A DNA stretch of 39,907 bases from positions 124,001 to 163,907 of the forward strand of contig JAVKOQ020000114.1 in the NCBI GenBank assembly GCA_031835245.2, given 5' to 3'. This stretch comes from Balamuthia mandrillaris (Eukaryota). Numbering within the stretch: the stretch's first letter is position 1; every line of letters starts with the position of its first letter. Of the stretch, positions 2,182-39,907 are shown in pieces. Under the pieces are notes generated by a model. The model saw only the letters and a list, made by a program, of their open reading frames with translations, was not told where the DNA came from and searched no databases. The position numbers were made by a program, and so were the translations under genes.

Positions 2182-2213
<32 letters not shown>

Positions 2214-6817: not shown

Positions 6818-7297
6818 ATGACAGGGAAAGAGGAGAAGAGGAACGCAAAGCTGGATGAGAAGCTGTTGGCCGTGGCACAGAGGGGACAGCCAAAGAGGCT
6901 GAAAAAGGTGCTGAGCGAGGGAGCCAACCCAGACGCCAGAGAATCGGTCGAGCAGTACACCGCGCTTCACATAACTGCGGCTGCAGCTCGCCTCAAATGT
7001 TCTACAGTCCTCATCGAAGGAGGTAGCTTTCTTTTTGTTTGTTTTCTTTCTGTGGTGAACTTGGGGCTCATCTTCCTTATCTTTGGTTTTTGAAGGGGCG
7101 GATGTGAACGCGAGGTCAAAAACGGGACACACGCCGCTCCACATGGCGGTAGGGCACAACCATCACAAGATGACTAAACGTTTGCTGAAGCACGGCGCCG
7201 ACCCCATGCTTTGCACCGACAACGACGAGACCTTGTGTCACCTCGCTGCCGTCACAGACGCCAGGATGATGAAGCTTCTGCTCAGGAAAGGTTAGGT

Positions 7298-7334
<37 letters not shown>

Positions 7335-7651
7335 AGTTTAAGAATACCTTATTGAAACAACGAACAGGAGTTCCATTTGACAAAGTGGACAAGCTGGGAA
7401 GAACGCCGTTGTCCATCGCAGTGGAGGCAGAGAATACGGACGTGATGCAGGTGCTGTTAAAAAAGGGAGCGGACCCCAACGGTAAGTCCAAAGACAAGCA
7501 CGGTCCGCTTCACATTGCCGCCTTGAATGGCAGCATGGAAGCTGTGCAAGCTCTGCTGGAGGCAGGCGCTGATAAGAACCAGAGAAACGCCGTGGGAAAG
7601 AGTCCACGCGACCTTTCCTACGATAACATGCTCACCCAGGCTTTGTCTTGA
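6818..7651 (+). CDS. Ankyrin-repeat protein, 3 exons: 6818-7022, 7096-7290, 7368-7651
   Basis: Ankyrin consensus TALHITA, GADVNARSKTGHTPLHMA, GRTPLSIA, GPLHIAALNG; splice phases consistent. Confidence 0.92.
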
Positions 7652-10698: not shown

Positions 10699-11381
10699 AT
10701 GCAAAGCGAAACCCCCCTGAAGCTCTACTACTTTGGCATCAAGGCCAGGGCACACCTGCCCCTCCTGGTCTGCGAGTATGCCGGCCTGAACTACCAGTGG
10801 GTCACCGACTTTGACTGGGCCACCATGAAGCCCACCACCCCCTTTGGTCAGCTCCCATACTTGGTGGATGGGGACGTAAGTTTGGCTCAGAGCATGGCCA
10901 TTGCTCGCTACCTTGCCAAGAAGGCCGGCTTGCAGGGCACCACGGACGCTGACTATGCCATGTCTGAACAGTAAGTAGTGAGCGACTGGCCTCCTTTATT
11001 GCATTCTTTCTCTTTCTCAATACTGAACTGCTTCCTTTTTCAACAAGACTCATCGAGGAGCAAAACGACATCTACTCCATCTTGGCCAAGGCCAACAACG
11101 CTCAAAACAAGCATGAGGCCTACGATCAGGCCCTCACTGTGGATATCCCCAAGCACCTCGACCTCCTGGAGAAGCTGCTGGGTGAGAGCGAGTACTTTGC
11201 CTCCACCGTGACCACCGGTGACTTGGCCCTCTTCTCCGTCTTCAACATCATCCTGGACTTTGACTCCAAGGCCTTCGACAACTATCCCAAGCTCAAGGGC
11301 TTCTACGACCGCCTGTCTGGACACTCTGGCGTGAAGAGGTTCTTGGAGCTTCCCATGCGCCAATACTTGAAGCGCGACTAA
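10699..11381 (+). CDS. Glutathione S-transferase (sigma-like, Tyr-type), 2 exons: 10699-10970, 11048-11381
   Basis: LKLYYFGIKARA, KPTTPFGQLPYL, LAQSMAIARYLA, VTTGDL, YPKL; strong C/G-ending codon bias suggests high expression. Confidence 0.93.
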
Positions 11382-13215: not shown

Positions 13216-16200
13216 ATGAACGGCGGAGGAGAGGTGCCCCCCTTGGCGCCGCCCGACGGAGAGGGAGAAGGAGGGGAGGAGGGCTCCCTGCGCACCTCCT
13301 CCAACAAAGTGGTGGACCTGGTGAGCCGCTTCCAACCGCAAAAGAATGCCGCCCAGGAGGCGGTGCCGACGGAGGGCTTCCAGAAGCTCCACTGCAACCT
13401 GATGAGCGAGCTGCTGCAGCGGGCCAACAGCTGGCGCTCCCTCCGCGCACAGTGGGAGCAGCGCGCCCAGCCGGAGCCCCCTCCCGAGATCACCCGCACG
13501 GGCCTCGTGTGGACGCGCCCGCAGCTGGAGGCCGCCTCCAAGGACGAGATCTGGCAGAGCATCGACTGCATGCAGAAGGAGGTGGAGGCGCTGCGCAGCC
13601 ACGCCAACCTGAGGGAGGTGGAGGCCCTCCAGCGCAAGAACCAACAGCTGGAGGTCAAGCTGAACCGCACGCGCTCCTACCTGCAGCAGCTCAACGACCA
13701 GCTGGAGAGGATGCAGAACAACGCGGTTGCCTTAGGGTTAGACGGAAAGTCGCCGGCTCAGCGAGGAAAGCGAGAGGAGGAGGATGCAGCGGACGAGGAC
13801 GAGGACGAGCATGACTGGAGCGAGGCTATGGGGTGGAAGAACGGACTGGAGCATGCTATCGTCACGCTTAGAGACTATGAGCAAAAGGATAGAGAGCAAA
13901 CCAAACGGATTCAAGAACTCGAAGAGGCTGGTATGTCTTCTCTCTCTCTCTCTCTCTCTCTCTCCCCCTCTCTCTCCCTCTCTCTTCTCTTCTCTTCTCC
14001 CTGTTCTTCATTCCTCTACCTTCTCTTTCTGGTTCCTGTTCGTCACTCTTTTTCTCTTCTATCTTTTTGTTCTCGTTTTTTTTTCTCCAATAGACTCAAC
14101 TTTGTTGTAGTAGCACAAGCGCAACGAGCTCCAACTGTAGGAGGAAGGGACCCGATGGAACTGGACATGCTGGTAGCGCAACAGGAGGAACGTATAAAAG
14201 AACTAGAAGAGCAACTAGAGGATGCCAAAATGGCAGCCATCCCACAAATGCAGCAGGAACGATTTCAGAAAGAACAAGAAATGCGGCAGCAGATTGACGA
14301 AATAGAGGACCACTATCACGCCGAGTTAGCCGCACGCGATGAAGAGCTGGAGAAGAAGAACGAAGAGAATGAAAGATTGGAAACGGAGTTGCGTAGGATT
14401 CAGGATAAATTCGACCAAATGGAAGGACAGCTTGAGGCGCTGAGGGTGGAAAACGAACGTCTAGTCGTGGCAACAAAGGAAGCAGCTGAAAAAGGCAACA
14501 AACAGGAAGAGGCCAGCAACGCAAAAGCGGAGGTGGAGAAGCTTCAACAAGACAATGACGAGCTGCAAAAACGTTTGGCAGAGACTGAGAAACGGTTGAC
14601 TGAAATGGAGAAAGAAATGGAGGCCGTGCGCCAAAGAGAGAAGGAGGCTCGCGCAAAGGCTGAACGAGATGAACAAGAGTTACGTTCGAGGTTAGAACAG
14701 TCAAACGAAGAGTTAAAAGCGGCCAAAGCGGCAGCTATAGACAGAGACAATGCAACAATAGAGGAAGAACAAAAGCTTAGAGATGAGTTGGAGCGATTGA
14801 ACGGAGAGCTAGCGACAGCCCATCAAAAAGATCAAGCACAACTGGAAGCCCATCAAAAGGAAAAAGAGCAACTGTTGCAGCGCATAAAGGAGCTGGAAAG
14901 TAATAATGACGAGAGAGAAAAAGCTGAGACGGAAGCGTTGCGGCACACTATTAGCGACCTCGAGACAAAGCTTCAAGGTTTACAGAACGAGAAGGAGGAG
15001 CAGCTGAATCAACTACAGGATAGAGAACAGCAGTTGGAAGACAAACTGAGGCTCGAACTACAACAACTGGAGGCACGAGTGAAAGCTCTTGAGCAAGAGA
15101 GGGACGGGGCAAGAGATATGTTAGAGAAGGAACGAGTGAGTGCAGCACAACAAATGGAGCAACTTCAGACAGCCACCAAACAAGAGGTGCTGCGCATCGA
15201 ACAAGAGGCAGGAGAGGAAATCGCGCGGCTCAAAGAAGCAGTTGTCGAGGGACAGAAAAAGTGTCACCAACTGGAAACAGAGCTCCAAACAGCACAACAA
15301 CAGCAGGAGGAGGAACAAAGCCGTCGTATTGCAGAAGAGAACGACCGAAATCAACAACATAAGGCCAACGCTGCACAAGAAGAGAGTCAACGCATGCAAC
15401 GCGAACAAGAGAGAGCAGAGGAGCTTGCACGAATAAAAGCTGAACTGGCCGAGGCACAGAAGAGGTGCCAAGAATTGGAAACAAAATTGCAAAACACGCT
15501 GGAAGAGTTGGAAGAGGAAAGGCGTCAGTCTGCGGAAGAGAACACCCGACACCAACAAGCAATCGACCGGCATCAAGACGAGCAACGAGGTCTTCTTGAG
15601 CAAGAGCAACAACGTTTGGAGGATGTGAAGCAGCAATTGCAGCAATTGCAAGCGGAAAAGAAGGAGGTGGAAGAGGAAGCAATACGACTTGCTGAGGAAT
15701 TGCAAAACGCAGAAGCCAACAAAGATGATGCCACCAGAGACCAACAACAATTGGAGGAGGTGAAGCGGCGGGTGCAAAAAATGGAAGCAGAGAAGAAGGA
15801 GCAGGAACAAGAACGAACGCGGCTTATTGATGCATTGAAAAAAGCAGAAGTCGACAATGACAACATCACAAGAGAACAACAGCGATTGGAGGAGATGAAG
15901 CAGCAATTGCAGCAAATACAAGTTGAGAAGAAGGAGTGGGAAGAGGAAGCAATACGACTTGCGGAGGCGTTGAAAAGCGCAGAAGCCGACAAAGACAATG
16001 CCACCAGAAACCAACAACAATTGGAGGAGGTGAAGCGGCGGGTGCAACAAATGGAAGCAGAGAAGAAAGAGCAGGAACAAGCACGAATGCAACTTGCCGA
16101 GGCGCTGAAAAAATCAGAGGCTGACAAAGAAAATGCCACCAGAGACAAACAACGATTGGAGGAAGTGAATCAACAATTACAACAAATGGAAGCAGAGAAG

Positions 16201-17079
16201 AAGGAACAGGAACAAGAAAGAATTCGGCTTATTGATGCATTGAAAAAAGCAAAAGCCAACAAAGACAATGCCACTAGAGACCAACAACAATTGGAGGAGG
16301 TGAAGCGGCGGTTGCAACAAATGGAAACGGAGAAGGAAGAGCAGAAAGAAGAACAAACGCGACTCACTGAAGCACTGAAACATGCAGAGGCTGGCAAAGA
16401 AAATGCCACGAGAGAGGTGGAACAGCTACTACAAGTCAAAGAAGCTTTACAAGGAGCGTTGAAGACAGCACAAGCCAAAGGATCAGAAGAACGGGCAAAG
16501 CAACAAAAGGAATTGGCGGCTGCTCGAGCAGAAGCCCAACGTTTGAAGGACGAGTTGAAGAATGCAGGAAGAGAGGCGGAGAGAAAAGGCAAAGAGAAGG
16601 ACGAGGTAACAGCAGAGCAAATAACAGAAAGCAAACAAAAGATAGCCCAACTACAAAACCAGCTCAAGGCAAAAGAAGACCAAGTACTTCGTCTCACGCA
16701 AGAACTGTCCGCTCAAAAGAACAGACACCAGCAACTCTTAAAAGAGGAGAAGAAGAACAAACGACTGAGCAGTCCCCTCTTGCCCATCAACAGAGCTAAA
16801 TGGCGGTCGATGGCCTCTTTTGCGACAAGCGATGAGATCTTAGCACAAAAGGAAAAGGACAAAGTGAAAGAAATGCAAGAGACATTAATGCACCAGCAAG
16901 AGATGGTGAAACAACTGTCTGCTCTCCAACACAATCACAACAAGGCTGGCTATCTCATCAGCAAGGCTCAACTTTTGGGCAACCTTTTGGTGTGGTGCTG
17001 CATCACCATGTTTCTCTTTGGATGGCTTTATCTTCGCTATTACCGGCAAACTCTACTTGAGTGGCTTCCGCCGCATTGA
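13216..17079 (+). CDS. Long coiled-coil tail-anchored membrane protein (KASH-like or golgin-like), about 1227 aa after removing in-frame intron 13931-14110
   Basis: E/Q/K-rich heptads over more than 1000 aa; single TM LLGNLLVWCCITMFLFGWLYL then RYYRQTLLEWLPPH*; GTATGT...TTGTAG intron with CT tract. Confidence 0.85.
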   Translation: MNGGGEVPPLAPPDGEGEGGEEGSLRTSSNKVVDLVSRFQPQKNAAQEAVPTEGFQKLHCNLMSELLQRANSWRSLRAQWEQRAQPEPPPEITRTGLVWTRPQLEAASKDEIWQSIDCMQKEVEALRSHANLREVEALQRKNQQLEVKLNRTRSYLQQLNDQLERMQNNAVALGLDGKSPAQRGKREEEDAADEDEDEHDWSEAMGWKNGLEHAIVTLRDYEQKDREQTKRIQELEEAGMSSLSLSLSLSPSLSLSLLFSSPCSSFLYLLFLVPVRHSFSLLSFCSRFFFSNRLNFVVVAQAQRAPTVGGRDPMELDMLVAQQEERIKELEEQLEDAKMAAIPQMQQERFQKEQEMRQQIDEIEDHYHAELAARDEELEKKNEENERLETELRRIQDKFDQMEGQLEALRVENERLVVATKEAAEKGNKQEEASNAKAEVEKLQQDNDELQKRLAETEKRLTEMEKEMEAVRQREKEARAKAERDEQELRSRLEQSNEELKAAKAAAIDRDNATIEEEQKLRDELERLNGELATAHQKDQAQLEAHQKEKEQLLQRIKELESNNDEREKAETEALRHTISDLETKLQGLQNEKEEQLNQLQDREQQLEDKLRLELQQLEARVKALEQERDGARDMLEKERVSAAQQMEQLQTATKQEVLRIEQEAGEEIARLKEAVVEGQKKCHQLETELQTAQQQQEEEQSRRIAEENDRNQQHKANAAQEESQRMQREQERAEELARIKAELAEAQKRCQELETKLQNTLEELEEERRQSAEENTRHQQAIDRHQDEQRGLLEQEQQRLEDVKQQLQQLQAEKKEVEEEAIRLAEELQNAEANKDDATRDQQQLEEVKRRVQKMEAEKKEQEQERTRLIDALKKAEVDNDNITREQQRLEEMKQQLQQIQVEKKEWEEEAIRLAEALKSAEADKDNATRNQQQLEEVKRRVQQMEAEKKEQEQARMQLAEALKKSEADKENATRDKQRLEEVNQQLQQMEAEKKEQEQERIRLIDALKKAKANKDNATRDQQQLEEVKRRLQQMETEKEEQKEEQTRLTEALKHAEAGKENATREVEQLLQVKEALQGALKTAQAKGSEERAKQQKELAAARAEAQRLKDELKNAGREAERKGKEKDEVTAEQITESKQKIAQLQNQLKAKEDQVLRLTQELSAQKNRHQQLLKEEKKNKRLSSPLLPINRAKWRSMASFATSDEILAQKEKDKVKEMQETLMHQQEMVKQLSALQHNHNKAGYLISKAQLLGNLLVWCCITMFLFGWLYLRYYRQTLLEWLPPH
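15607..16416 (+). repeat. Coding tandem repeat, 6 x 135 nt (45 aa), with 270-nt higher-order period
   Basis: TTGGAGGAGGTGAAGCGGCGG recurs at 15751, 16021 and 16291. Confidence 0.9.
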
Positions 17080-20551: not shown

Positions 20552-22381
20552 TTAGTAATAAATGGAACGAACTCGATGGATAGGGAGATGCTTCATGAGC
20601 GATGCATTCTCTTTGGCACTGTCCCAAAGATAAAAGTCGATGACTATCGCGTTCAGCGGATGCGACTTCCATTCTTCTTTTGTATCTTGTCCTTCTTCCT
20701 CTTTCTCCAGCCGTGCCATTTCTCTTCGAATAAGCTATATCATTCGATTAGTTTCAGTCCAATCAGTGTGAAACAAAAAAAAGAACCAAACCTCAACTGC
20801 CCAAATGGAACAGCCTCTTATTTCCACCTCGAGCTCATCGCCTGAATGGAAGAGATGGCCTTCCGTTAGCTGTTCCAATAATTCGTTGCTATATTTCAGC
20901 GCCCCGAAGTACAGTAGACCCTGTTACAATAAACGTTTTTTGTAAGTCTGCAATGCTCAAACAGGATGCAAAAATGTCATCATCTGTCTTTACCTGAGGT
21001 ACTCTATGTGTGCATTAAGCTGAAGTTAGATAAGAAAGAGAGGAGAAGAGAAAGAATTGAAATGAATTATCGTTACCTATAGTCAGCGAACATGGTAATG
21101 TGCTCAATGTCTGAAAAGCTACCAAAGCTAGCACCAGCAAAGCAAGCCCACAGATCCGCTATCAATATCTGTGCTCGTTTGTAAAACTTAACTAAGGCAT
21201 CATACAATGTAAGTTCTTGAACAAAACAGATGAGAGAGAGGGAGAACAAGAGAGAAGAGAACGAGACCTGTCCTATCGTGATACTGAGCTTCGTCTCTAT
21301 ATGAACTAAAGTTCTTAACAATAAGGTCTAATAGAAGAAGAGCGTTGCCACCAGCCTCTGCTATGCAATTGACAAAAGAGCCCTGAAAGCGGCGCAGGAG
21401 GACACTTCCAGCCTCGTTCAAGACGCCCACTCTCTCCTCCAGCATTGGCAGCTCTTCCTCCGTCTCTGACCGGAAGATATGTCGCAGCTTCTCCTTTGAG
21501 ACATCTCGCATGTACTCGGCACTTGTGAATGGGATGCCCTCCTGTGTTATGTTTGAGAACTCTGATATAAGCAAACAAGAAAGAAAGCAGAGGAACGAAG
21601 AAGAGAAAAGCAGAGAGAAGAGAACGAGAGAAGAGACAAGAGGCAAGAGAACGAGAAGAGACGACGAGAAAACGAGAGAGGATAACGAGAAAAGCAGAAC
21701 AAGAAGAGAGCAGAGAGAAGCAAAGAAGCAGAGAACGAGTTAACAAGAGAAGCAGAGAACGAGCGAAGAAGAGGAGCAAGGTGTAATGACCTCAAGAGCT
21801 CGGTTTACAGCAGCACAAAGGGACCAGTATCCGGTGTAGGTGTTGCCACGGTAGGCCACAGCGAACGGCCGTTCTTCGGACTCGCTCCAAAAGCTAAAGT
21901 TGAGGGTGTCCACCAGGAATATCCTTTTTTTTGTTATGATGAAAAAAAAATTGTTGTGAGCCAAAAGGGTTACAAAAAAGGTGGTGCTCCGGGGTGCTGT
22001 ACCAGTCCACAGTCGCTTTGGTCTTGTCTTTCGGGTTAAGAGCGTGCTGCGACCATGTTTGCAAAGAAAAACGTCCCTTCTTGCGGACCTCGTGCAACTT
22101 TTGTTGTTGTTGTGGTTGTGGTTGTGGTTGTGGTTGTTGTGGGGGTCACTTGTGAGGAAGCGAATAGAAAAAAATAAAGCTGAAGATGTACATATATATA
22201 CCTTGCGAGCAGCAGAGACGACGCCTTCAGCGGGTACGCTCACATGTTCCGCCCTTCCTGCAATAAACTCTGCAGACTCCAACACCACCGACGCTGTTTC
22301 TGTGGCCTTCGTCTGGGGCGCCGCTGTCCCTTCCTCCTCCTCCTCCTCCTCCTCTTGTTGTTGTCGTTGCATGTTCTTCAT
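20552..22381 (-). CDS. QNG1: Queuosine 5'-phosphate N-glycosylase / queuosine salvage protein (C9orf64, DUF2419), multi-exon, includes a 10-nt micro-exon
   Basis: [84 protein letters not shown]. Confidence 0.96.
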
Positions 22382-22667
22382 AGTGGAAATTCTCTTCGGG
22401 TCGACACAAACATTTACATGACGACATGGATAAAATCGGGTCGACCTGTAGATAATTCCCTAGGGACGACATGATGATTCCGTACCCGTAAAGAAAGCAA
22501 AGAAGAAAGAAAGGGACAACGATGGGTTTCTTGAAGGGAGGAAGGGGAGGTGGCTTGTGGCGGTCCTTGAAAGGGTTTTCTTTGTTTCCATGTAAGTAGT
22601 TTTGAAAACAACCTGCGACACCCATTTTTTTTTGGTACATTAAAACTTTTTATTCTGGTTGGGTTAA

Positions 22668-24101: not shown

Positions 24102-25388
24102 ATGAAGAAACGAAAGGCCAGCTCGTTGGGTGGCGGAGCCTCGGTGGCCAGCCTTTATTCCTCTCCGATACGGCGAAGACCACCCCAGGCCAGACGAAGG
24201 AGAAGCGCTCCCTCCTCCGCTCATGAGGATGTCTTTGCTGCCCTGAGGGAGGGAGAGGAGAAAGAAGAAGTGGGGGAGGAGGAAGAGGAGGAGGAACGGG
24301 TGGAGTTGGGTGAACTTGCCTCGGACACGTGGGTTGGCTTGCAAATACTTCGCTCCCAGTTTCCGCTGCTCTCTGGCGATGCGCGGACGCCGCCAGTGCC
24401 TGTTCTCCTCAAAACCCAACTATATGCCATCGTCACCAACCACACGGACGTCGATCAACAGCTGGTACCTTCTCTCGTTCTCCCTCCTTGTCGTTCTCTT
24501 CGTGGTGTGTTCGCTTCTCTGCTTCTCTCAGCGGTGAGAAAACAACCCAACAAACACGCACACAAACAATCAAACAAAAGGACCAACTAAAGAAAGACGG
24601 AAAGCTGCGACTGTTTAAGTTGCTGAGCCTGAAGGACGAGTATGCCATCATGCTGCAGGAGGACTATCTCTCTCTCATCGACATTACAAAGCAACGGCAC
24701 ATCGACATCCAGAAACAAGAGCGAGCAAACGACAAAGAACCTGAAGAGTGCTCCGCAAAAGCCAAAGATAAAGAGCGGGAGAAAGAGGAGGACTCTGCCA
24801 CTGAAACGAGTGCTGCCATTTTTGGTACCTTCAACCTGAGTTTTTTTGCTATGCGATACTTAATCCTATCTTCTTGTTGCAAAAAGATATCTTTGTGAGG
24901 ACGGTGGCCTCGACATGTTGTGCCAAAGAGAGCATCACAAAAGCGGAGCTGAGCAACTTGTTGTTTGGGGATGGTCCGATCAACGAGACACAAATTACGT
25001 TGGTCTTCACCTTCTCTTCTTCTCCCTTCTGTTCCATTCGATAGCTCTTTCTCTTGGTTTTCCTTCCCATCTTTTGCTTATGGTTTTTGCTCTTAGCATG
25101 TTGGTGAATGCAGGTTTGTTAATAAGAGGAAGGGAGGAAATAGAGTGCTTTTGGTTCTCTATTCCAAGCACAGGTCCATTTTTCAGCAGCTGCCTCAAAG
25201 GACGGAAGGAAGTGATCACCATGCTGCAAAGAACAAGGCATAAGGAGATGTTTCGAGAGGACCTCGCCAAGAGGAAGATGCGATACTCTTTCTTGCCACC
25301 AATGTTCCACGTGAAGGACCTCATAGGCAAAGAAGTACTGGAAAGCGTGGAGACAACGGCCGGACCACTAATACGATTACGAAATTGA
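24102..25388 (+). CDS. STK19: STK19 / winged-helix DNA repair factor homolog, about 4 exons
   Basis: DT...LRSQFP, LKTQLYAIV..HTDVDQQL, LVNAGLL, FWFSIPSTGPF....KGRKEV, FHVKDLIG..VLESVETTAGPLIRL. Confidence 0.9.
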
Positions 25389-25424: not shown

Positions 25425-28400
25425 TCAGTAAAAGTGTACAGAGGTCCATCCTTTTCTTCGATATCCTTTTGGGCAAAAAAGCTCAAGCATCTTTCCTCGT
25501 CCACGCGCTTTATCGTAACAGGCGTTTGGTAGCATTGTCTCGATGATGTCATATACCGCTTCTGGTTTTTCTTCCCGTTCTACTTCCACCCAGTCTTCTT
25601 CTTTTTTCTCCTCCTCAAGATCTGCCACGTGGTCTCCTTTACTTGCAGAAGCTTCTTTTTTGGTTCGTTTGGTTGAGTTGCGATGACGAATGTGGTGATA
25701 ACGTTCTTTGGAGATGGGAGGAAGCGGAGCAAATATTACATCCGTATTTCGTTGATGGCGCAGCTCCAAATCTCCTGTTGCTGTTTCTTCTTCGTCAATG
25801 TCATCGTCATCGTTGTCGCTGCTGCCAACAACACCATTCAGGGAGGAGGGCATCTTCTTGAAAATGAGGAGAGTGAGCTTGGACTTGCGGAAGTAAGGAG
25901 AGGGTTCCTCGACGGTCTTATTGTTGACGGATTGCCGCACCCATGCCAAGTTTTCCACATACGTAAACCTCCATTTGGCAGCCATTCGCATCACCTTTTT
26001 GTATTGTGTCAGTGAAGCAAGCAACATCGAAGATGAAATACGAGAGGTGAACTATACCCTTGGAATGAGCTCCTTTTCGACCCAAATGAACAAAAGACCA
26101 TTGCGGACCAAAGAACCGATGTCCCACCACCGCCCCAACTCCTCTGGAGTAACGCCCCATGTTTCTTGGTTGACCCATGGGGGATCCATTACCACTGCTT
26201 CAAAGTCATTGCCAAGAAGCTTTAAGTCATAAGGTTCTGACAGCTTCATTTCCCGATAACTAATAAGCTTTACTCGTTAGAACGGAAAAAACAGAAGTGA
26301 AAGAACAAAAGGGAGAGAAAGTTACAATGCGCCTTTGATGTCCTGATAGCGCCTCTGCAGGGCAGTACGGCCCTTATGATCACGTTGGAGCGGTTGGATG
26401 AGCCTTGCCCATGTGCTCGGTATACGCTTTGGCATCGCAACCTTTTCTGGCGGTTGCTCCTCCTGCGGTAGTGGGGCAAGCCCTTTGATCCAAAAGGAAA
26501 GGTCCAGTTGTCGTGTTATCGGTGCTGTTTGTTTGGACCGTAGTAGCGGCGAGGAGGATATTAGTTGTTTCTTGTTACGCTCCGGTTGAAAGGTTTTAAT
26601 CGCTTTCGTTTCGAGTTTGGGTGGCTGTTGAGGTGGCGAGAGTGGTGGTAGTGGTTCTGTCTTTTTGTTTGCTTTCATTGCGAGTCGTTGTTCCTTCCGT
26701 TCAAGCAACAATAAGGCATCGTTGGTCTTGCTCTTGTTGAGAGGCGTTCGTTTCTCGTTTTCCTTTTCATTGTCCTTGCTCTTTTTCTTTTCTTGCTTAT
26801 GTACATGGCTTGTATCGATGGGAGAGGTGGATATGAGTTGGGAGGCTATGGTCGAATGCTCAGTCTCTCTTTTGCTTCGTTGAGGTGAGACGGAGGAAGT
26901 AGTAAACGTTATGTCTCCCTCTCCTCCATGATACTTTCTAAGCCATCTATCCACCCATTTTTCAACGTATTTGACTTGTTGGGTTTGCCATACATCGGTC
27001 AGGCAGTTTTTAAGCTGCATCTGCTTAGGAAATAACAACGTGAGTTCTCTACTGTTGTCTGTGAAAACGGGTACACGTACATCCTTAGAATGGCTACCAC
27101 GGTATCCAGCCAAGCATTGTCTCGTGTCTTCATCGACCTCATTGTCCGTTCGCTTTGAAGAAGCAGCATTAGCCTTTTCGTTTGGGAGCTTTCGCTCCCT
27201 CACTAACTTGCGGTAGTAGTTGGCGCATTGATAACCGACCCGGTGAGGCAATCCTTTGCTGAAGAGACCCCAGGAGGAACCCACCTGCCATCCTTTGCTC
27301 TTGAACTCGTTGTAACGATCCATCCAAGCCTTTGCTTCTGCTCCTTTGATGCCTCCTGAAGCTTGTTTTACTCCAATATCTACATGCATGTTCTCAAGGA
27401 TAAGAAAAAGACAAACATCTTGAGAAAGAAAGGAGACAAAGGGTTGAAATACCCGTGAATCGATAGTAATAGGCGTTGGGGTTGCTGTGCCGCTGTCTCC
27501 AAGCCGCTATTCTCGCCGAGGACCATTCTTTAACGCTCTGCTCATCAAAAGGTTCAACAAACTTGTCCAGCTCGATAAATGCTTCTTCGTCTCCTTTGCG
27601 TGAATCAATCTCCTCTTGTGCAGGGTGTAACTTCTTGCTTGGTTCGTTGTGTTGTTGTTCAGTCAAGGGCGACTGCATTGTCATTGCCTCATTCCTTTCT
27701 TCTCTGCTGCTTTTGGATGGCAGATCATCTTCTTCCATTCTCTTCGAGTTGCGAGTAATGCGTATGGTTAGACGATTGTTGGACGCCTTGCTATCTTCTT
27801 TCTTTGGGGGTTCTGTTTCTGCCGAGGGCTCAACAACGGAAGCTCTATGCTTTGGCGGCCGTCCTCTGCTAGTTCTTTTTTTGCCGGATCCTTTCGGTCT
27901 TCCTCGTCTTCGTTTTGTCACAACCTCCTCCACAGGTTCCTCTGCTTCCTTCTTTTTCTGTTCCTCCTCATCGTACTTTTCACCTTGAGACAGATGCCCC
28001 TGCACTACAAGTGCCATCGGATCCTGTTCACTAACTTGTGTTCTCCTCTTCTTGTGTTGACTAGCGACGGGATTGTCGTGCTCCATATTGTCGTCGTTGT
28101 CATTGTTATGTCGTGTTGCGATTGCGTCAGGAGAAGATGGTTCAGCAAGGAGGTTAAAAACTCGTTCTATTTTTCTTTTAAGTGAGTTGCCTCGCTCTTT
28201 CTGATCTCCATTGCGTTCCTCACCAGCTGCTTCTCGCGTCTTGTCGAAAGGTAAAAGCGTCGCAACATGTTGTCTGGTGTTATCTTCTCCCTTCACGGGA
28301 GAGCTACCATTTGAAAAAGCGCTCTCTTCTCCCTCCCACTCTTCTGAAGAAGAAGAACTGGTGTCCAGGAAGCCGCCCCATTGTTTCTTTTTGCGCTTCT

Positions 28401-29292
28401 TCTGCTTTGTGGGTGAAGGCGAAGAGGAGGGTGTTGGTGTAGCTGCTGCTTTGGGAGACGTCGTGGTTGCAGTCGAAGGCCGTTCAGGAGCTGTGTATGT
28501 ATCGGCAGTAGAAAGAGAAGGAATGGGTTTTTCCACCTTCGCCACGTCTTTCCCTGTTGATAACGAAACTTTTGACAACGGGCCAAAAGAAGAAGCCTCA
28601 CAGGAGGAAATAGTAGTACTTGACGGAGGTAGAGGACCTATGCGGCTGAAGGAAGAGGTGGTGGAAGAGGCTATTCTCGAAGAAGCATCCTTGTTGGGGG
28701 TTCGCTTCGCTAGAGAAAGTGGTGGTCGTTGGCGAGCTGGTGTAGTGCGTTGAAAGAGCAGGCCGAAGGGGGAAGGACTGTTTTTGTTTTTGTGCACTAC
28801 TGAAACGATCTTGACCTCCTCCTCTTCCTCTTCTCCTTGCTTTACCGGTTCTTTTCCGCTCTCCTCCTGTGTTGTGGATAACGTAGGCAGTGGAAGCGGC
28901 AGCGAAGGAGGTGGGGTAGCGGTCACCTCTCTTCTCGGAGGATCATCTTCGCTGTAAGCGGTAGTGATACACGACTGGGATGGCAGCAGCGGTTCCGCTG
29001 CAACAAACGCGAAAACCTCTTCGTCTGCCTTGCCGTGATGCCGTCGCAGCTCTTCAGCGATCTCCTCCTCTACCTGCCGAAAGGAGTCCAAAGAGAAGCT
29101 GCTGCCCGCGCTCCCAAGGCCTCTCCCTTCCGCCTTGCCACCGTCCTCAAAGAAGGACAGCCAGGCGGCCACGTCCAAGGGCTCCTCCGAAGAACAAAAC
29201 AGGTCCATTTGCTGGCACGGTTGGCTTCCTTGCGCACCATCTTCATCATCGCCGTACGGCCAGTGATGATGATGGCTGGCGTTGTCCATCAT
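25425..29292 (-). CDS. Fusion protein: AT-hooks + p1/AMTP1-type Myb-like domain + MT-A70 (MTA9/AMT6-7-type) methyltransferase domain; exons 29292-27453, 27379-26326, 26259-26058, 25994-25425 (~1221 aa; alternative start 29385)
   Basis: Three GT-AG introns with matching phases (1, 2, 0); NPNAYYYRFT-D...WGLFSKGLPHRVGYQCANYYRKLV; FEAVVMDPPW, GLLFIWVEKE, YVENLAW, YFRKSK, LELRHQRNTDVIF, KPEAVYDIIETMLP, KMLELF. Confidence 0.85.
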
Positions 29293-30205: not shown

Positions 30206-30325
30206 TCCTATCCTTGCCAATCTGTGCTCCTTTTGTGCACCGCTGTCATGGTGCTGCAATCCTTGAGCTCTTTTTCTGTACAAACTGAACAAAACAAATC
30301 AAACGAGAAAAAAGAGAGAAGAGAG

Positions 30326-31901
30326 ATGGAAGAGGAGCATGGCGATGGAAGAGAGAGCAGAGCGGAGCATGGCGATGGAAAGGAGGTCCGAAGGGTGGTC
30401 ATTTGTGGCGGGGGCGTCATTGGAGCAAGCATAGCCTACCATCTGATGCTGTTGCTGGCTCACGCTCCGCAGCAGCAAGGGGATGAGGAGCAGGGTGAGA
30501 CCCCCACTTCTCAGCCCACCACCACCCCAGAGTGGCAGGTCACCGTGGTGGAGAAAGGAGGGCAGGTGGCCAGCGCTGCCTCTGGCAAGGCCGGTGGCTT
30601 CCTGGCCCTGGACTGGTGCGACCACTCCGCGTTGCGGCACCTCGCCCGCCCGAGCTTCCAGCTGCACGCCACGATGGCCTCCGCCTTTGCCAGCGAGTCC
30701 CAACAGAACTATGACTATCGCCCCATGGACACCCTCTCCCTCACCTGCAAGGCCGGTCTGAAGCGCTCCGCCCTGTTGGAGCAACAAAGAAAGGAGGAGA
30801 AGCGGCGCGAGAAGATGCCCTGGCTGCCGCCATCTGCTGCGCTGTCCTTGCTGCCCTCCTGGCTGGACCTGTCGGCGATCAAGGCGTTCTCTCCGCTGGG
30901 CAACACTGAGACCACAGCCCAGCTGCACCCCGCCAAGTTCACTCGTGTTCTCATAGAAGAGGCTCAGAAGTTGGGCAACGTTCAGCTGCTTCTCAACACT
31001 GAAGTGACCAACGTTGCTATGGAGAATGGCAAAGTGGTAGCTGTACAGATCTCTTCCTCCGCCTCCCCTTCTTCTTCCACTCCCACTACTCTGCCAGCTG
31101 ATGTGGTGGTGGTAGCGATGGGTCCATGGTCCAAAGATGCGTGCCGATGGTTTCCTAACCTGCCTCCGATCCATGCACAAAAAGCACATAGCATCCTCAT
31201 TCGCCCTTCTAGTCCGGTAATGTTCCTTCTCCCTTCTCTCGCTCTGTTCTTGTTCTGTCTCTTTACTCTCCAAAGCTCTTCTCTCTGTGCCCCTTCTCTC
31301 GTTCTCTCGCTCTCGCTCTCTCTCTCTCACTTTCTCTCTCTCTCTCTCCCTGCTTTGTGTGTTCTGTTTGCAGTTATTTTGGGTGTGGGTGGGAGTGATT
31401 AAAATGAAAGATGATGACTGACGTTTTATAATCAACTTATGTTAGGTGAGTGCACACGCGTTATTCGTGGAATACACAGACACGACGCGTCGCTCTCCAG
31501 AGATCTATCCACGCAGCACAGGAGAGGTCTATATCTGCGGCGAATCAGATGGAAGAACGCCGCTCCCTCCTCACCCTAACGACGTCAAGCCCAACGAGGA
31601 GAGCTGTGAGGCCTTGCGCTCTGTAGCAAGCGCCCTCTCTCCGGCGCTCTCAGAGGGCCAAGTGGAGTGCCAACAAGCATGTTACCTACCGTTATCGCCA
31701 GATGGATTGCCGCTGCTGGGCCGCATAGAGGGGGTAGAAGGAGCATACGTGGCCGCAGGGCACGGGTGTTGGGGCATCCTCAACTCGCCCGCAACTGGCT
31801 TGGCCATGGCGGAACTGATCTTGTACGGTAGCAGTCACTCCATCTCGCTTCGCCCCTTTGATCCTTCAAGAAAAAGTGTTCAGGTGGCAACAAGAGAGTA
31901 G
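30326..31901 (+). CDS. FAD-dependent oxidoreductase, DAO family (TDA3/Btn3-like), 2 exons: 30326-31216, 31446-31901
   Basis: VVICGGGVIG, ASAASGKAGGFLALDW, TTAQLHPAKFT, AMGPWS, PEIYPR, QACYLP..DGLPLLG, AAGHGCWGILNSPATG. Confidence 0.92.
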
Positions 31902-32586: not shown

Positions 32587-34197
32587 ATGGGAGAACATTT
32601 TAATGAAAGCATACGCCGCGATATCACAACATGGTACCGCCATCATCTTTGGTGAAAACGATATCGTTCTTACTTTGCTAGCTTCATCCTGTCCTTTAAC
32701 TCCGTTCCAGGATTCAAAACAACTATAGGATAGAGATTGGAATGTCAACACCCAAGGAGAGCGTCTACTGTCACTACACCATGAGCTGTATGTTTCGGGG
32801 ATTGAAGCCCGTTTCTTCCTCTGTCTTTGGGCGGATCATGCATAAAGTATTTCCCGCATTGAAGAGCTCCCGCAAAGGTGCGAGAGCGAAAGCCCCTATT
32901 CGTCCCTGTTCTCCTGTTTGGTGTTTCTGTGCACACTTCACCTTTCCTAAAAAACGGAAACATCAGCTAACACCTCAAACAAACGAAAACAGGTCCTCGA
33001 GGAAAGGAAAAGCACCACTACAAGGACTTGGGGGTGCGATCAGATCATGACCCTGCACTGCTCGTCAACCAGCAGAAAGAAGCTCCCTCTGAAAGCAACA
33101 ATAGCTGCACTAATTCCCAGGAGGCCAACAAGAGAAAACGAAAGAGAAGCCGCGCAACCTTTGTTGACGAGGGCTTGAAACTACAAACACACACCTCTGA
33201 AACGGCTGGTTGTGACGCAGTCCTCCAGCGTCATCCACGACCTCATTCCACACCTCCTGCCGCATTCTACAACCTAGTTTCCGCAAGCTGGTCTCCTGCC
33301 TCTTTCTCCTCTGCTTCCGCTGATGAAACACTAGGACGGAACCCAGGCCTGCCCACGCCTCAACTGAAACGAGAGGTGGCTGCAAACCCAGTCACCCGGT
33401 CCTCGGCACCAGCGTCCACCAGTGGCGTGAGCCCCCATCACCACCTACCATCGAGTAATCCTTTTTCCGTTTCCTCAGCATCACCAACACCCACACCCAC
33501 GCCTCCACCACACCAACTACAAACCAAAGGGCATTCTTCTCCGATGGGTACTTCCCCTCTGCACTACTGCTCTAATGTTTCTCCAGTGGCCAACTCGTCT
33601 TCAGCCCCCACCCCTCGCTTTATGGAGGAGGTCTGTTCCTGGGAGCTTGGACCCATCTTCTCGTGCACCTTCGCGGAGGACCTCCCCGACACATTGCAGC
33701 AGTGCGCTCAACACTTCCTCAAGCAGTATCAACAGCACTGGGAGCAGGTCTTTGAGGCCCTGCTGCGAGGGGATCTGAAGGGAGCGGGACATCTCTCTCA
33801 CCCCTTCTGGGAGTCCGTTGCCTTTTTGTATCCTCTCTTCGAGGAGAGGAGCGTCTGCGCGCAGATACTGGACCTCGACAGGGAGGCTTACGGCACGCTC
33901 TCCGACCTCATCATGGCCAACTCTGCCCTGGGTCATGTCGAAACTCTAGCTGCTTGGTGCAAAGAGCTGGCCAACTTGTTCCCTCGTTTCGTGGAGAACG
34001 CGGTAACGGGCGTGCTGCCACCCTACCTCGTCTCGCGAAAGGTCCGGCAGGCCAAATCCTTTGCCGCCACGTTGGTCCATCGGGCTGAATTCCTGTGTTA
34101 TCTCGATCGTCAGTCAAGGAATGGTGGAAGCAATCTCTCTGTGCCAACAGTACCAGAGGTCTTGGACCGTTCTCTCCCAAGTCACTGCGTGCACTGA
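32587..34197 (+). CDS. RFX: RFX-family winged-helix transcription factor; exons 32587-32633, 32711-32877, 32993-34197
   Basis: Spliced WIQNNY...STPKESVYCHY..C...LKPVSSSVFGRIMHKVFPALKSSRKGPRGKEKHHYKDL follows the RFX DNA-binding domain; C-terminal FLKQYQQH...FW and AKSFAATL resemble the B/C/dimerisation regions. Confidence 0.85.
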
Positions 34198-35851: not shown

Positions 35852-37137
35852 ATGAGAGAGGAAGGAAGGACGTGGCTGGGTGCTTTCGAGGTGTTGCCGT
35901 TGGAGCTCATCTCCCACATCGTGGAGCAACGGGCTGACGATGTGAGCTTTGTGTGGACGATGTGTAGCCTAAATAGCGAGTGGCGCCGCCTTCTCGACAC
36001 TTCCCAAACCTGGAAACGGGTCTTTGCGGCCCACTTTCCATCACAGTATGCTTCGCTGCGTTGGGTTTGTCACTCCCTCTCTGGAAACCTTACAAGGGGC
36101 TGCTTTTCTGACCGAACAGTGAAAGCAAAGGTGGTAGGACATGGCCTATGGAAGACAACCTCGACGGAGAGAACCCCACAAAAATTCCCATGGAAACAAC
36201 AGCTGATAGCAACGCTGCGTTGCCCTCTCGCCCGCGTCTACCTCCCGGAGGAGCAGGCTCGCCGCTTTTTAAAGGTCTACAGATACCACACCTTTCGCGT
36301 TGATGTGGGCGTGAGCTGTCAGGCCACTGGTCGATGGTACTTTGAGGTGGAGTTACTGCACACCACTGGGCATCCCAACATGCAGCTCGGTTGGCTTACC
36401 AACCCTTTTGATGTTGACTCTCGGGTTAGTTCTCCTGCTTGTTTTCCAACTGGAGAGCAAAGAGCGAGAGCACAAGCAGAGAAGCACAGGTGACAGCGAA
36501 CAAGAGAACAGAGAAGTGGGAGCGGAGAGCAGAGAGAGGAGAGAAGAACCAATAATTCAAGTGCTAACCAAAGCGAAGCTGCACTATGGAGTAGGCGATG
36601 ACTCACATTCATGGGGTTTTGATGGCTTCCGGTTGATGCGTTATCACAACGGGAAGCAGCTCCGTGACTATGGTGAGAGGCAATGGCAAAATGGAGACCG
36701 CATAGGCTGCTGTTTAGACCTTGACGCTTCCACCATCTCCTATTATCTTAATGGTAAGCATCCCTGCTGAGTGGTCTTTCTATCTTTTGCGTCTCTGATC
36801 CACCTAAACAGGGCGTTCTCTGGGAGTGGCTTTCAGTTCAGTAACTGAAGACCAACCAAATGGAAGCTTCTTCTATCCCGGTGTTACCTACTATGGAGGC
36901 TACTTCCCTACCATCATATCCAACCAGAGCCCCCATCATTGTCAACAGCGAGCAAAACTAGATGACTATCCATCCCTTGTTTCTTCCGATGAGAAGACAC
37001 ACAGTGTGAGTATAGGCGTTCGCTTTGTCTTCGATGCAGACGAATTCTGCCATTCCACGTTGCTGGACCAAGGCGTTATGCCGTTGACGCTTCTGTATGG
37101 CTCTGCTTCTCAACCCGCCATCCTACTCTGTACCTAG
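35852..37137 (+). CDS. F-box + SPRY domain protein, paralog 2 (4 exons)
   Basis: Same motifs (LPLELISHIV, GRWYFEVELL, GVGDDSHSWGFDG, FFYPGVTYYGGYFPTII) and introns at the same three positions. Confidence 0.88.
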
Positions 37138-37508
37138 CTCGTCTGCTGCAAGAGCAGGCCTGGAACTACCTGGTTCAACAGACCACAAAACCTTACAGCG
37201 TGGTGCGTTGTCCCTCTCGCCCTATTATTCATTTAAATTTGCTCACAACCTTTCTCAGAGGGTGAACCTATGAGGGAGGCATATTCCTTTCGGCAAATAA
37301 GGTTGTGCGACGGTTCACCAAACTGTGATTGTTCTCAAAATACCACTCCTTTCGCAACTGCGATTGGCTATTCGCAACCCCTTGTCACTCGAATAAGGTC
37401 TGTTTTAGGTAAAACAAAATTTGCAAGACTCTATCCGCAACGAAAGTTCTGCAGCCTTCCATTCACCCTCTCTCCCTTTGTTTTTTTTGGACAGGAAAAG
37501 CAAACAAT

Positions 37509-38589
37509 ATGGTGAGGAACTCTTGTGTCGCGAGGGTGGCGCTGCTCCTTGCTTGCGTCTTGTTAGCGATAAGTTTGGGCTCGGCAGAGTTGTTAGAAAC
37601 CTCCACTCGCTCCTTTCGTGAGGCTACTAGAAGAGAGCTTGCCGCCGCTGACAACACTACTCGCAACCGACCCGAGTTCCCAGACTCTGCTTCGGAAATC
37701 AAAGATGCGCTGCTGAATGCCCTCGTCAAGGCCAAACGCTTGTATGATGACTCTGAGAAAGGAATGCAAGTAGGAGTGGGTGTAGCAGTGGATATTGGTG
37801 GTGAGATCACTGTACAAGTGGGGCACGGCCAGGCTAGAAGATCTGAGGATAACGACGGGAAACCCATGAAGGTGAACGAGCACACGAGGTTCTTCTTTGG
37901 TTCTAACACCAAGACCGTGACTGCTGCTTTGACCATGAAGTACCTTCAGGTTTTTCTTCCCCTTCGTTTTTCTAAATTCGTGGTGTATATGTGCACACGC
38001 TCTTGTTTGTGTTTGTGTTGTTCGCAAGGCGTATTGGTGTTTGCTCACTTCTGCAGTTTTAGCCTTAACCTACAACCGCTACAACAGGAAGGCATGATAA
38101 GCCTGGACGACGACCTGAAGGAATATCTTTCAACTGAGTTGACCTCACGTTACAAATATCCTGGCGACATAACACTGACCGACCTGCTTAGGCACACGTC
38201 CGGTCTTAAGGAGTACTTATCGTTCAGCGGTGTCAATGTCACAAACGTGTGGACCATGGAGGAGCTTGCCTTGCACGGTCCTGCCGGCAACGAGGCAAAA
38301 CCACCAACGGCCTATGAGTACCGCAACACCAACTACTTATTGTTGGGTTTAATCTGCAGGATTCTTGCCGAAGAGCGAGACACGGTTGTTTTGGAGCAGC
38401 CTCTCTATGAGGACTTGGTGGGGGAGTTTGGAGAATCTGCTGAAGCACTTCAAAGCTGGGAGTTTCCTTTGGAGTTCCATTGGAGCTATGAAAGTGCGAG
38501 CAACGCCTATGAGGAAACCGAAGATGGTTCATATGGCCCTCTGTATCTCCCTTTCCCTCTCTTGATCTCCTCCCTCCCTTCCTCTCTTC

Positions 38590-38620
<31 letters not shown>

Positions 38621-39251
38621 TCGTTCTAGTTTCGTCTTTTATCTTCTCCACTCCGTTATTTCAGCAAAAGCTTCCTAACATCTCTACTCTGATCCCGTAA
38701 AAAGGTGACATTGTCAATATCAACAGCCCACCAAACAGCAAGTTTTCTCCTTCCCTTCCCTCATCAGCAGGAAACATACTCTCTCGCCCATACGACATGG
38801 TCAAATTCTACCATCGCCTTTTTGGAGCCCGTGACCTCATATCCTCTGAAAATGTGGATAAGATGATAGACTTTGGGGAAGACGGCACTAAATACGGCTT
38901 CGGCGTAATTTCTTTTAATTCAGTTCTTGATAGGGACTATTTATCGGCCATTAACATAACGGCATACGGTCATGATGGCAAGTGGTTGGCATGGGTATTA
39001 CTTTCTTTCTTGCCTCTTTTTCCTTTCTCCGTTGATGAACTGAGGAGACTAAATAATACTTCTGTTGTTAATTATCGTAGGAATCTTACTGTCTGTACAT
39101 CCCTGAGTTGGATGTTTCATTTGCTTTTGCCAGCAATGTTGAGGAGTATAATTCTTTAACTGTGGCCATGAGCACTCTTGACTTTTTCCTTGAGGCTTTC
39201 GAAGCCGGGAGCGACTCCTCCTCTTCTTCATTGCACCCTTGGTGGTGGTAA
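37509..39251 (+). CDS. Secreted beta-lactamase-family (class C / D-Ala-D-Ala peptidase-like) serine hydrolase, paralog 1, about 4 exons
   Basis: Signal peptide; FFFGSNTK (SxxK), ITLTDLLRHTSGL, YEYRNTNY (YxN), YGHDG; last exon ESYCLYIPELDVSFAFASN...HPWWW*. Confidence 0.88.
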
Positions 39252-39324
39252 ACAATAAAACAACCCCCTTTCGTGCATTGTGCGCCTTCTACGAGTTCCG
39301 CCCAGCGAGAGAAGAACGGACGCA

Positions 39325-39907
39325 ATGACTTCCAGAAGCGTGTCTGGCCTAAAGGTGGCCCTGCTCGTTGCTTGCTTCCTGGTGACCTGCTTGCTCGGCT
39401 CTACAACGGCAAGTCGCAACAGACCTGAGTTTCCTGTGGACTCCGAAGCCATTAGGGAGGCGCTGCTTGACGCCCTCGAAGAGGCCAAGGGCTTGTACGC
39501 CCCTACTGAGGAAGGCATGAAGGCAGGAACGGCTGTGGCGGTCGACATTGGAGGTGGGCTCACCGTGCAAGTGGGACATGGCCATGCCCGAAGAGCCGAA
39601 GACACGGATGGAGAGGCGGTGCTTGCCGATGAATACACGAGGTACTTCTTTGGTTCGAACACCAAGACCGTGACTGCTGCTTTAGTTCTCAAGTACCTGC
39701 AGGTTTTCTTTGCTTTCATTTTCAAGCCTTTAACTTTGTCGGCGTTCATTTTCGCTAATGCTGCGTATGCGCTTTATTTATTCCTTTTACCTAACAGAAA
39801 GAAATGATTTCAAGTCTAGACGACAACTTGGCCAGCTACCTTCCCGATGAACTTGCCGTACGCTATGCACACGCGAAACAAATAACCCTAACCGATCTAT
39901 TGAGACA
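39325..39907 (+). CDS. Secreted beta-lactamase-family serine hydrolase, paralog 2 (cut off by window end)
   Basis: Signal peptide; RNRPEFP..S..I..ALL.AL, VQVGHG.ARR.ED.DG and FFGSNTKTVTAAL..KYLQ shared with paralog 1; intron at the same position. Confidence 0.88.

What the first reader, a model, noticed from the sequence alone, without database searches (positions are those of the whole stretch)
25425..29292. Apparent fusion of two DNA 6mA methyltransferase complex subunits (p1/AMTP1 + MTA9/AMT6-7) in one gene
Seen: four ORF pieces join in frame through GT-AG introns 27452-27380 (phase 1), 26325-26260 (phase 2, CTAAC branch-like site) and 26057-25995 (phase 0), totalling 3666 nt. The middle reads WSSARIAAW...NPNAYYYRFTD...WGLFSKGLPHRVGYQCANYYRKLV. 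The C-terminus is an MT-A70 domain with FIWVEKE, YVENL, ELRHQR.D and IETMLP. Known: the ciliate MTA1c/AMT1 complex writing ApT 6mA has separate MTA1, MTA9 (AMT6/7), p1 (Myb/homeo-like) and p2 subunits. Inference: from recalled motifs, the two domains match p1 and the AMT6/7 clade rather than AMT1 or METTL3/14. This would be a DNA-binding adaptor fused to its MT-A70 partner, an architecture I do not know to be described.
Basis: partly seen in the sequence, partly recalled or inferred. Interest (0 to 1): 0.88.

Follow-up and report, generated by a model that had tools for sequence, protein, structure and literature searches.

The report
DNA methylase partner with built-in tethers
One amoeba gene joins a Myb-type domain, a motif predicted to grip the DNA replication clamp, and a relative of the partner subunit of the enzyme that writes adenine methylation on DNA; the layout recurs in many early-branching fungi and likely ties copying of this mark to replication, but the Myb part is not the p1 subunit first proposed.

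Summary
The gene is real; the p1 label is wrong. RNA-like contigs confirm the last intron and show a fourth, missed one (27080-27021); the disputed junction 26326/26259 is uncovered, but MTA9 homology starts upstream of it. The C-terminal domain is AMT6/7(MTA9)-like (profile E 2e-36, against 1e-20 for MTA1). The Myb domain fails p1 tests that had a working positive control; it belongs to a separate family also joined to MMS22L or U-box domains. The Myb + MT-A70 layout is in 11 of the 150 best hits and dozens of early-diverging fungi, matching the published paralogue Mta9_B. New here: a PIP-box-like motif upstream of the methylase domain in 55 of 60 fused proteins and 0 of 11 unfused ones, suggesting PCNA-coupled maintenance like Tetrahymena AMT6. 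DPPW is kept, but other SAM contacts are replaced. PCNA binding, DNA binding and activity are untested. The scan noted this fusion before in a fungal genome (e1-7321988).

The parts
27453..29292 (-). Exon 1 (ATG 29292; database isoform P0005 starts at ATG 29385): long low-complexity N-terminus, AT-hook-like motifs, first half of the Myb module
   Evidence: N-terminus 3% conserved across homologues
27850..27918 (-). Two AT-hook-like RGRP motifs (aa 459-481); seen only in the Balamuthia copies
   Evidence: motif match only, (0 of 11 other fused proteins); Pfam gives no AT-hook call
27183..27558 (-). Myb/SANT-like module with N-terminal extension (aa 579-679), split by intron 1; not p1 or p2
27380..27452 (-). 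Intron 1, GT-AG, 73 nt, phase 1
   Evidence: used by all six database isoforms; X11 contigs end on either side, no joint listed
27081..27379 (-). Exon 2: second half of the Myb module
27021..27080 (-).
   Evidence: joined in X11 contig
26326..27020 (-). Exon 3: conserved helix, basic linker, PIP-like motif and first conserved block of the MTA9-type domain
26922..27002 (-). Conserved helix after the Myb repeat (aa 720-746); absent from the U-box-bearing branch of this Myb family
26487..26510 (-). PIP-box-like motif QLDLSFWI (aa 884-891), predicted PCNA-binding site
   Evidence: binding not tested
26388..26411 (-). WARLIQPL block that aligns to Tetrahymena MTA9 residues ~106-115; lies upstream of the disputed intron
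26260..26325 (-). Intron 3, GT-AG, 66 nt, phase 2; retention gives a stop at 26324-26322 and a protein lacking the methylase core
   Evidence: spliced in P0002, P0004, P0005 and retained in P0001, P0003, P0006; 1-nt deletion at 26318 in a divergent copy; no RNA read across it
26058..26259 (-). Exon 4: MT-A70 N-half with DPPW (26186-26175) and FIWVEKE
25995..26057 (-). Intron 4, GT-AG, 63 nt, phase 0
   Evidence: joined in X11 contig
25425..25994 (-). Exon 5: MT-A70 C-half (YVENL, ELRHQR, acidic inserts, IETMLP, MLELF, GW), stop at 25427-25425; no GNE motif

Best explanation
The gene encodes one roughly 1200-residue protein with a Myb-type module, a PIP-box-like motif and an AMT6/7(MTA9)-type MT-A70 domain, which likely serves as the non-catalytic partner of the 6mA writer AMT1 and is predicted to be brought to newly replicated DNA by the sliding clamp PCNA. 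Shown: gene structure, domain order, AMT6/7 affinity by profile, a Myb family distinct from p1 and p2, and conservation of the motif. Inferred steps: (1) The MT-A70 domain pairs with AMT1 as MTA9 does in ciliates, and AMT1 supplies catalysis, because the C-terminal SAM contacts are replaced here although DPPW survives. (2) The motif docks on PCNA, as the PIP box of Tetrahymena AMT6 does, so this complex starts remethylation of hemimethylated ApT behind the fork. (3) The Myb module adds a DNA or nucleosome contact in addition to p1, not in place of it. (4) The unfused paralogue with the YVGYVEDE N-terminal motif (Mta9_A) fills the other, clamp-independent role.
For: AMT6/7: the window exon alone hits MTA9-B/MTA9 at 3e-6 to 5e-4 and MTA1 at 0.018 or worse. 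The profile of 12 fused proteins gives MTA9-B 2e-36, MTA9 1e-33, MTA1 1e-20, METTL3/14 1e-7. Foldseek ranks AMT7/MTA9 first for a Cunninghamella homologue model. One protein: spliced database isoforms at two loci; MTA9 homology begins upstream of intron 3; a transcriptome-derived full fusion in the amoeba Endostelium (P0022); exon indels listed for a divergent copy sum to multiples of three while the intron has a 1-nt deletion (3 further indels not shown). Spread: amoebae, Mucoromycota, Mortierellales, Dimargaritales, two green algae. PIP: 55 of 60 fused proteins (51 strict), 1.4 expected from shuffles, 83-127 residues before the catalytic motif; 0 of 11 unfused. Its Q and L are two of three invariant columns in a 34-row alignment. 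AMT6 is recruited by PCNA through a PIP box (PMC11761967 passages). SAM contacts of MTA1 are D182, V183, D209, S332, R357, N360, N370, E371 (PMC9852454). By-eye, motif-anchored comparison with the AMT1 sequence printed puts E, P, Y, F, Y at the last five positions here.
Confidence: 0.55

Rival explanations
1. The protein is an AMT1 partner targeted by its Myb module, but the Q-x-x-L-x-x-aromatic motif binds something other than PCNA or packs on the protein itself, so there is no replication coupling.
For: The Balamuthia motif is imperfect, and the green algal proteins lack it. The AMT6 PIP sits elsewhere in the fold. PIP-like motifs can bind other partners (own knowledge).
Against: 51 of 60 fit the strict consensus; the motif sits in a low-confidence, likely flexible part of the model (pLDDT about 45, with a short helix at 310-314). 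A PCNA-recruited paralogue exists in the same clade.
Confidence: 0.22
2. The protein is itself an active adenine methyltransferase, alone or as a second active site in the dimer, with the Myb module as its own targeting domain.
For: DPPW is kept here and in 59 of the 73 non-A-type rows surveyed. The fold score is highest against catalytic MTA1.
Against: The GNE, RRNN and SQKP SAM-contact motifs of AMT1 are replaced (by eye). DPPW is eroded in some fused members (DPSW, NPPV, SPPL, NLDW) and also kept in 4 of 12 A-type rows. Mucor mta1 loss removes all symmetric 6mA (PMC11258239 passage).
Confidence: 0.12
3. The main product is the intron-3-retaining Myb + PIP protein of about 950 residues, or there are two genes, and the fusion is a minor or predicted-only isoform.
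For: Three of six database isoforms end at the stop in intron 3. No RNA joint was seen there. Many fungal database entries are N-halves or C-halves.
Against: The MTA9-homologous block starts upstream of the intron. 61 of 215 held proteins carry all four blocks (the profiles were built from many of these). A transcript-derived fusion exists in Endostelium. The MT-A70 C-terminal block is 100% identical between two Balamuthia copies, against 94% for the N-terminus.
Confidence: 0.08
4. One reading: p1/AMTP1 fused to MTA9, two subunits of the ciliate-type complex in one chain.
For: Both are Myb-like, and p1 touches MTA9 in the DNA-bound structure (PMC12485025 section 9), so such a fusion would make geometric sense.
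Against: The p1 profile misses the domain while hitting PDB p1 at about 3e-57. p1 and p2 signature motifs are in 0 of 215 proteins. Lichtheimia has the fusion plus separate p1 and p2.
Confidence: 0.03

Closest known systems
Mta9_B paralogue of early-diverging fungi (Lax et al. 2025, PMC12019607; R. microsporus PHZ11228.1, Lichtheimia LCOR_09837.1)
   Same: The Lichtheimia entry in their Supplementary Data 3 has the same Myb + helix + QxxLxxFF + DPPW MT-A70 layout. Their B-pattern PYISS.K occurs in fused protein P0013.
   Different: The text read (section 12 and passages) distinguishes the paralogues by an interface loop only and mentions no Myb domain or PIP box in Mta9; Fig. 4b could not be seen. 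The Balamuthia protein is longer, has AT-hook-like motifs, and its orthology to fungal Mta9_B is not resolved by trees.
Tetrahymena AMT6 / MTA9-B (PDB 8xyl_B; PMC11761967)
   Same: Best profile hit (2e-36); an AMT1 partner with a PIP box that recruits it to PCNA.
   Different: AMT6 has NIKW for DPPW, its PIP box is in an internal loop, and the Myb profile does not hit it.
Tetrahymena AMT7 / MTA9 (PDB 7yi8_A, 9o6k_A, 9u92_B)
   Same: ELRHQR and IETLLP motifs and the N-terminal W..I.PL block; top Foldseek hits.
   Different: NALW for DPPW, no Myb hit, reported not to bind PCNA.
p1/AMTP1 and p2/AMTP2 (PDB 7yi8_C, 8xyl_C; 7f4l_B)
   Same: Myb-like helix-turn-helix fold class.
   Different: No sequence or profile relationship beyond the generic Myb core.
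Unnamed Myb family with NPNAYYYRF extension
   Same: 713 representatives at E<=0.001 with this domain; same extension and recognition helix.
   Different: Other members carry U-box with CUE or UIM, MMS22L/Mus7, or a dual-specificity phosphatase instead of MT-A70.

Membership tests
AMT6/7 (MTA9) clade | MT-A70 domain | tested here: met
   Pfam PF05063 above cutoff for P0005 and P0002; fold hits for a homologue model
AMT6/7 (MTA9) clade | Closer in sequence to MTA9/AMT6 than to AMT1, METTL3, METTL14, METTL4 | tested here: met
   (2e-36 against 1e-20, 1e-7, 0.025); no tree with AMT1 or METTL outgroups was built
AMT6/7 (MTA9) clade | Catalytic DPPW eroded (as stated for ciliate members) | tested here: not met
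   DPPW intact; also intact in 4 of 12 A-type rows, so erosion is a ciliate trait rather than a clade rule
AMT6/7 (MTA9) clade | SAM-contact residues of AMT1 lost | tested here: inconclusive
   five C-terminal contacts replaced by by-eye, motif-anchored alignment; the D182 position could not be aligned with confidence; no ligand model
AMT6/7 (MTA9) clade | Heterodimer with AMT1; AMT1 present in the genome | not testable with these tools
   no whole genome held; no AMT1 sequence of this organism in hand
p1/AMTP1 | Profile match to the p1 N-terminal DNA-binding domain | tested here: not met
   positive control
p1/AMTP1 | Signature motifs (SPGW, FGIG.W, QR.LGQQS) | tested here: not met
   0 of 215 proteins; motifs read from the PMC12019607 supplement
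p1/AMTP1 | Structural match to the p1 chain | tested here: inconclusive
p2/AMTP2 | Profile and motif match to p2 | tested here: not met
   the Myb profile misses p2 chains at E<=10 although they are in the library; p2 motifs in 0 of 215; no p2 profile was built
Myb/SANT superfamily | Three-helix Myb repeat | tested here: met
   profile hits c-Myb at 4e-7; Atlas first hit PF00249 at 0.92; helices in the model
Myb/SANT superfamily | Binds DNA (Myb) or histone tails (SANT) | not testable with these tools
   needs binding assays
AMT6-type PCNA-recruited partner | PIP box consensus Q-x-x-[LIMV]-x-x-aromatic-aromatic | tested here: inconclusive
   strict in 51 of 60 fused proteins; Balamuthia QLDLSFWI fits the relaxed form only
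AMT6-type PCNA-recruited partner | PIP box in the internal loop of the methylase domain | tested here: not met
   here it is 86 residues upstream of DPPW; AMT6 position
AMT6-type PCNA-recruited partner | Binds PCNA | not tested
Fungal Mta9_B | Orthology (one clade with fungal fused proteins) | tested here: inconclusive
   shared four-block layout; trees unresolved, AU p 0.33 and 0.10

The most novel reading that the evidence does not exclude
The AMT6/7 family split very early in eukaryotes into a clamp-independent type and a Myb + PIP type. The second is a replication-coupled 6mA maintenance factor, the adenine counterpart of PCNA-bound DNMT1, conserved from amoebae to fungi and overlooked because gene models are often split. 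Its Myb module, also found on MMS22L in other protists, would be an undescribed reader of newly replicated DNA or chromatin, and intron retention could release a Myb + PIP form that competes for the clamp.
Probability: 0.3. Interest if true: 0.8.

Novelty: new variant of a known kind. Interest (0 to 1): 0.57.

Why it matters
How symmetric 6mA is copied after replication is worked out only in Tetrahymena, where AMT6 uses a PIP box reported as conserved in ciliate homologues. A conserved PIP-like motif plus an extra DNA-binding-type domain on one AMT6/7 paralogue in amoebae and early-diverging fungi gives a direct test of whether replication-coupled 6mA maintenance is general. It also assigns testable, different jobs to the two fungal Mta9 paralogues. 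It corrects the idea that the MT-A70 partners never carry a nucleic-acid-binding domain or DPPW, both stated for the ciliate complex. It is a variant of a known complex, not a new system, and the sequences already sit in databases and in a paper's supplement.

Tried and rejected
No whole genome is held, so AMT1, p1, p2 and an A-type paralogue could not be sought in this organism. No RNA holder was listed by the index. Raw RNA reads were too thin to list joints in this gene. X11 has no cover at 26146-26410, so that hole says nothing about intron 3. Pfam finds nothing in the Myb region of the window protein. Single-sequence searches of solved structures give only weak c-Myb matches. p1 and p2 chains are not among the 50 rows shown in either fold search; this absence is not taken as exclusion. 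No relative in viral contigs (4 pattern matches, none confirmed). The published MT-A70 tree file could be searched only for names, not read as a tree. One weak MT-A70 score in P0016 (35 bits, low-complexity region) was rejected as spurious. Twelve other in-frame GT-AG pairs near 26441-26195 exist; rejected because most would remove conserved residues and the database isoforms use 26325-26260. Earlier-findings look-ups by sequence and by place returned nothing. Trees could neither show nor reject a single origin of the fusion (near-duplicates, short fragments and most Mortierellales were left out of the AU runs).
Full report
Observation. A search with part of the Myb region returned three proteins, all named Balamuthia mandrillaris by NCBI, and their clusters hold six isoforms on three contigs. 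P0002, P0004 and P0005 splice intron 26325-26260; P0001, P0003 and P0006 stop inside it. They do not cover the disputed junction, and raw reads were too sparse to list joints in this gene.

One gene or two. Direct RNA proof at 26326/26259 is missing, but four things favour one protein. First, the block WARLIQPL at 26411-26388, upstream of that intron, aligns to Tetrahymena MTA9 residues near 106-115, so the methylase-like domain straddles the intron. Second, a divergent copy in DNA-like runs has listed exon indels that sum to multiples of three and a 1-nt deletion inside this intron. Third, of the 150 best hits of a search with the Myb domain alone (713 hits in all), 11 carry an MT-A70 domain downstream. 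Those named are Dispira, Dimargaris, Cunninghamella, Calcarisporiella, Bifiguratus, Podila, the amoeba Endostelium (a transcriptome assembly), and the green algae Cymbomonas and Myrmecia; two are unnamed. Fourth, a profile search added dozens more from Mucorales, Umbelopsis, Mortierellales and Dimargaritales (67 hits), and 61 of 215 held proteins have all four conserved blocks (partly circular, as the profiles came from these proteins).

The Myb domain is not p1. A profile of 27 relatives hits c-Myb at 4e-7 and no p1 or p2 chain at E<=10. To test this properly I collected p1 genes from metagenomes by motif (92 of 119 loci passed a filter). An alignment of 16 of them hits PDB p1 at about 3e-57 and p2 at about 1e-4, so the control works. 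The larger p1 profile scores the 245 held proteins no better than E 0.11, and profile-profile probabilities are 1.8% and 9.6%. p1 and p2 motifs are in 0 of 215 proteins. In the supplement of PMC12019607, Lichtheimia has a full Myb-fused Mta9, a second unfused Mta9, and separate p1 and p2. The domain instead belongs to a family whose other members carry U-box (with CUE or UIM), MMS22L/Mus7 or a phosphatase. The U-box branch forms its own group (98/91) and lacks the extra helix that the MT-A70- and MMS22L-linked forms share.

In an otherwise unconserved linker (10% identity) lies QLDLSFWI. Its Q and L are two of only three invariant columns in a 34-row alignment. A PIP-box pattern occurs 83-127 residues before the catalytic motif in 55 of 60 fused proteins (51 strict; 1.4 and 0.3 expected from shuffles) and in 0 of 11 unfused A-type proteins. 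The five misses include both green algae, the Balamuthia form fits only the relaxed pattern, and about half of the rows are close relatives. In Tetrahymena, AMT6 is recruited by PCNA through a PIP box to start maintenance methylation after replication, whereas AMT7 is not; that box lies in an internal loop, so the match is functional analogy. By eye, Oxytricha MTA9 sequences printed also show Q-x-x-L/I-x-x-aromatic motifs upstream of the domain.

Mechanism. Most likely the protein dimerises with AMT1 through its MT-A70 domain, is brought to nascent DNA through PCNA, and adds a Myb contact on top of p1, so that hemimethylated ApT is restored soon after the fork (0.55; every functional step inferred). 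Rivals: the motif has another partner (0.22); the protein is catalytically active (0.12); the intron-retained form is the main product (0.08); a true p1 fusion (0.03). Whether the fusion arose once is open: single-clade tests were not rejected (AU p 0.33; 0.10), but the free trees did not recover it.

What is in print. Searches listed no paper that describes a Myb domain or PIP box on a non-ciliate AMT6/7; most listed papers were seen only as listings. Read: PMC12695648 (passages; part 1 of 3 of its table file; word searches of 12 supplements, with no 'Myb', 'fusion' or 'Balamuthia' there; three files too large to read; Acanthamoeba has one AMT1 and two AMT6/7). PMC12019607 (passages, section 12, parts 1 and 3 of 8 of Data 3, part 3 of 5 of Data 4, review-file passages); it reports the Mta9_A/Mta9_B duplication without mentioning a Myb domain in Mta9, but its Fig. 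4b domain diagram and one picture-only file could not be seen and may show it. PMC12485025 (abstract, sections 7 and 9). PMC11761967 (passages, section 15). Passages only of PMC9852454, PMC7145601, PMC4738411, PMC13297926, PMC11258239 and bioRxiv 10.1101/2025.07.08.663716 (supplements not seen). Beh et al. 2019 was not read. UniRef names several fused proteins 'Myb-like domain-containing', so automatic annotation already sees the domain. This scan recorded the same Myb-Mta9 layout earlier in a fungal genome (e1-7321988); the excerpt shown does not mention the PIP motif.

Verdict. A real, conserved architecture and a new variant of a known kind. The headline claim of two complex subunits fused is wrong, which lowers surprise. 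The PIP-like motif confined to the Myb-bearing paralogue makes replication-coupled 6mA inheritance outside ciliates directly testable. Interest 0.57.

Noticed in passing
P0008, P0012 (Gefionella), P0017; not in the window: The same Myb + helix module sits at the N-terminus of MMS22L/Mus7-family proteins in some protists (P0017 by similarity to P0012), and with a dual-specificity phosphatase and weak HMG box in P0237. MMS22L acting at replication forks is recalled, not tested.
   Followed up: partly
P0026, P0029, P0033, P0044 and others: A large family with CUE or UIM + this Myb variant + U-box; 48 of 122 Myb-only hits have a U-box-like motif.
   Followed up: partly
window 26260-26325 and 25995-26057: Database isoforms retain intron 3 (Myb + PIP protein without methylase core) or intron 4 (P0004); could be regulated retention or assembly of unspliced RNA.
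   Followed up: partly
window 25425-29292 versus P0002, P0003 and runs X12/X13: Three copies on different contigs at 100%, 93% and 87% protein identity to the window model, plus a divergent copy in DNA-like runs; haplotypes or recent paralogues.
   Followed up: no
window 28345-28817: One X11 contig skips 471 bases with non-canonical ends and 27 other letters between, with only 22 letters on the short side; probably an assembly chimera, unexplained.
   Followed up: no
window 24314-25388 (+): Convergent neighbour with a Pfam Stk19 domain (1e-12) and an RNA-supported intron near 24824-24885; its stop lies about 40 bases from this gene's stop.
   Followed up: no
P0223, P0224 (Vermistella), P0228 (Diphylleia), P0233: Unfused A-type AMT6/7 proteins of protists also keep DPPW, against the general statement that the clade lacks the motif.
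   Followed up: partly
P0204-P0213 and similar fungal entries: Many fungal database models hold only the Myb half or only the methylase half, probably split annotations, which may explain why the fusion is overlooked.
   Followed up: no
window 7178-7648, 10968-11378, 21203-22459, 30206-31898, 32971-34194, 36315-36767, 37413-39804: Ordinary neighbours by Pfam: ankyrin repeats, glutathione S-transferase, queuosine salvage protein, FAD-dependent oxidoreductase, RFX-type BCD domain, SPRY domain, beta-lactamase-family hydrolase. None links to 6mA.
   Followed up: no
window 2001-3000 and 15001-17000: Strongly A-skewed stretches (AT skew 0.81 and about 0.54), probably low-complexity coding or repeats.
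   Followed up: no
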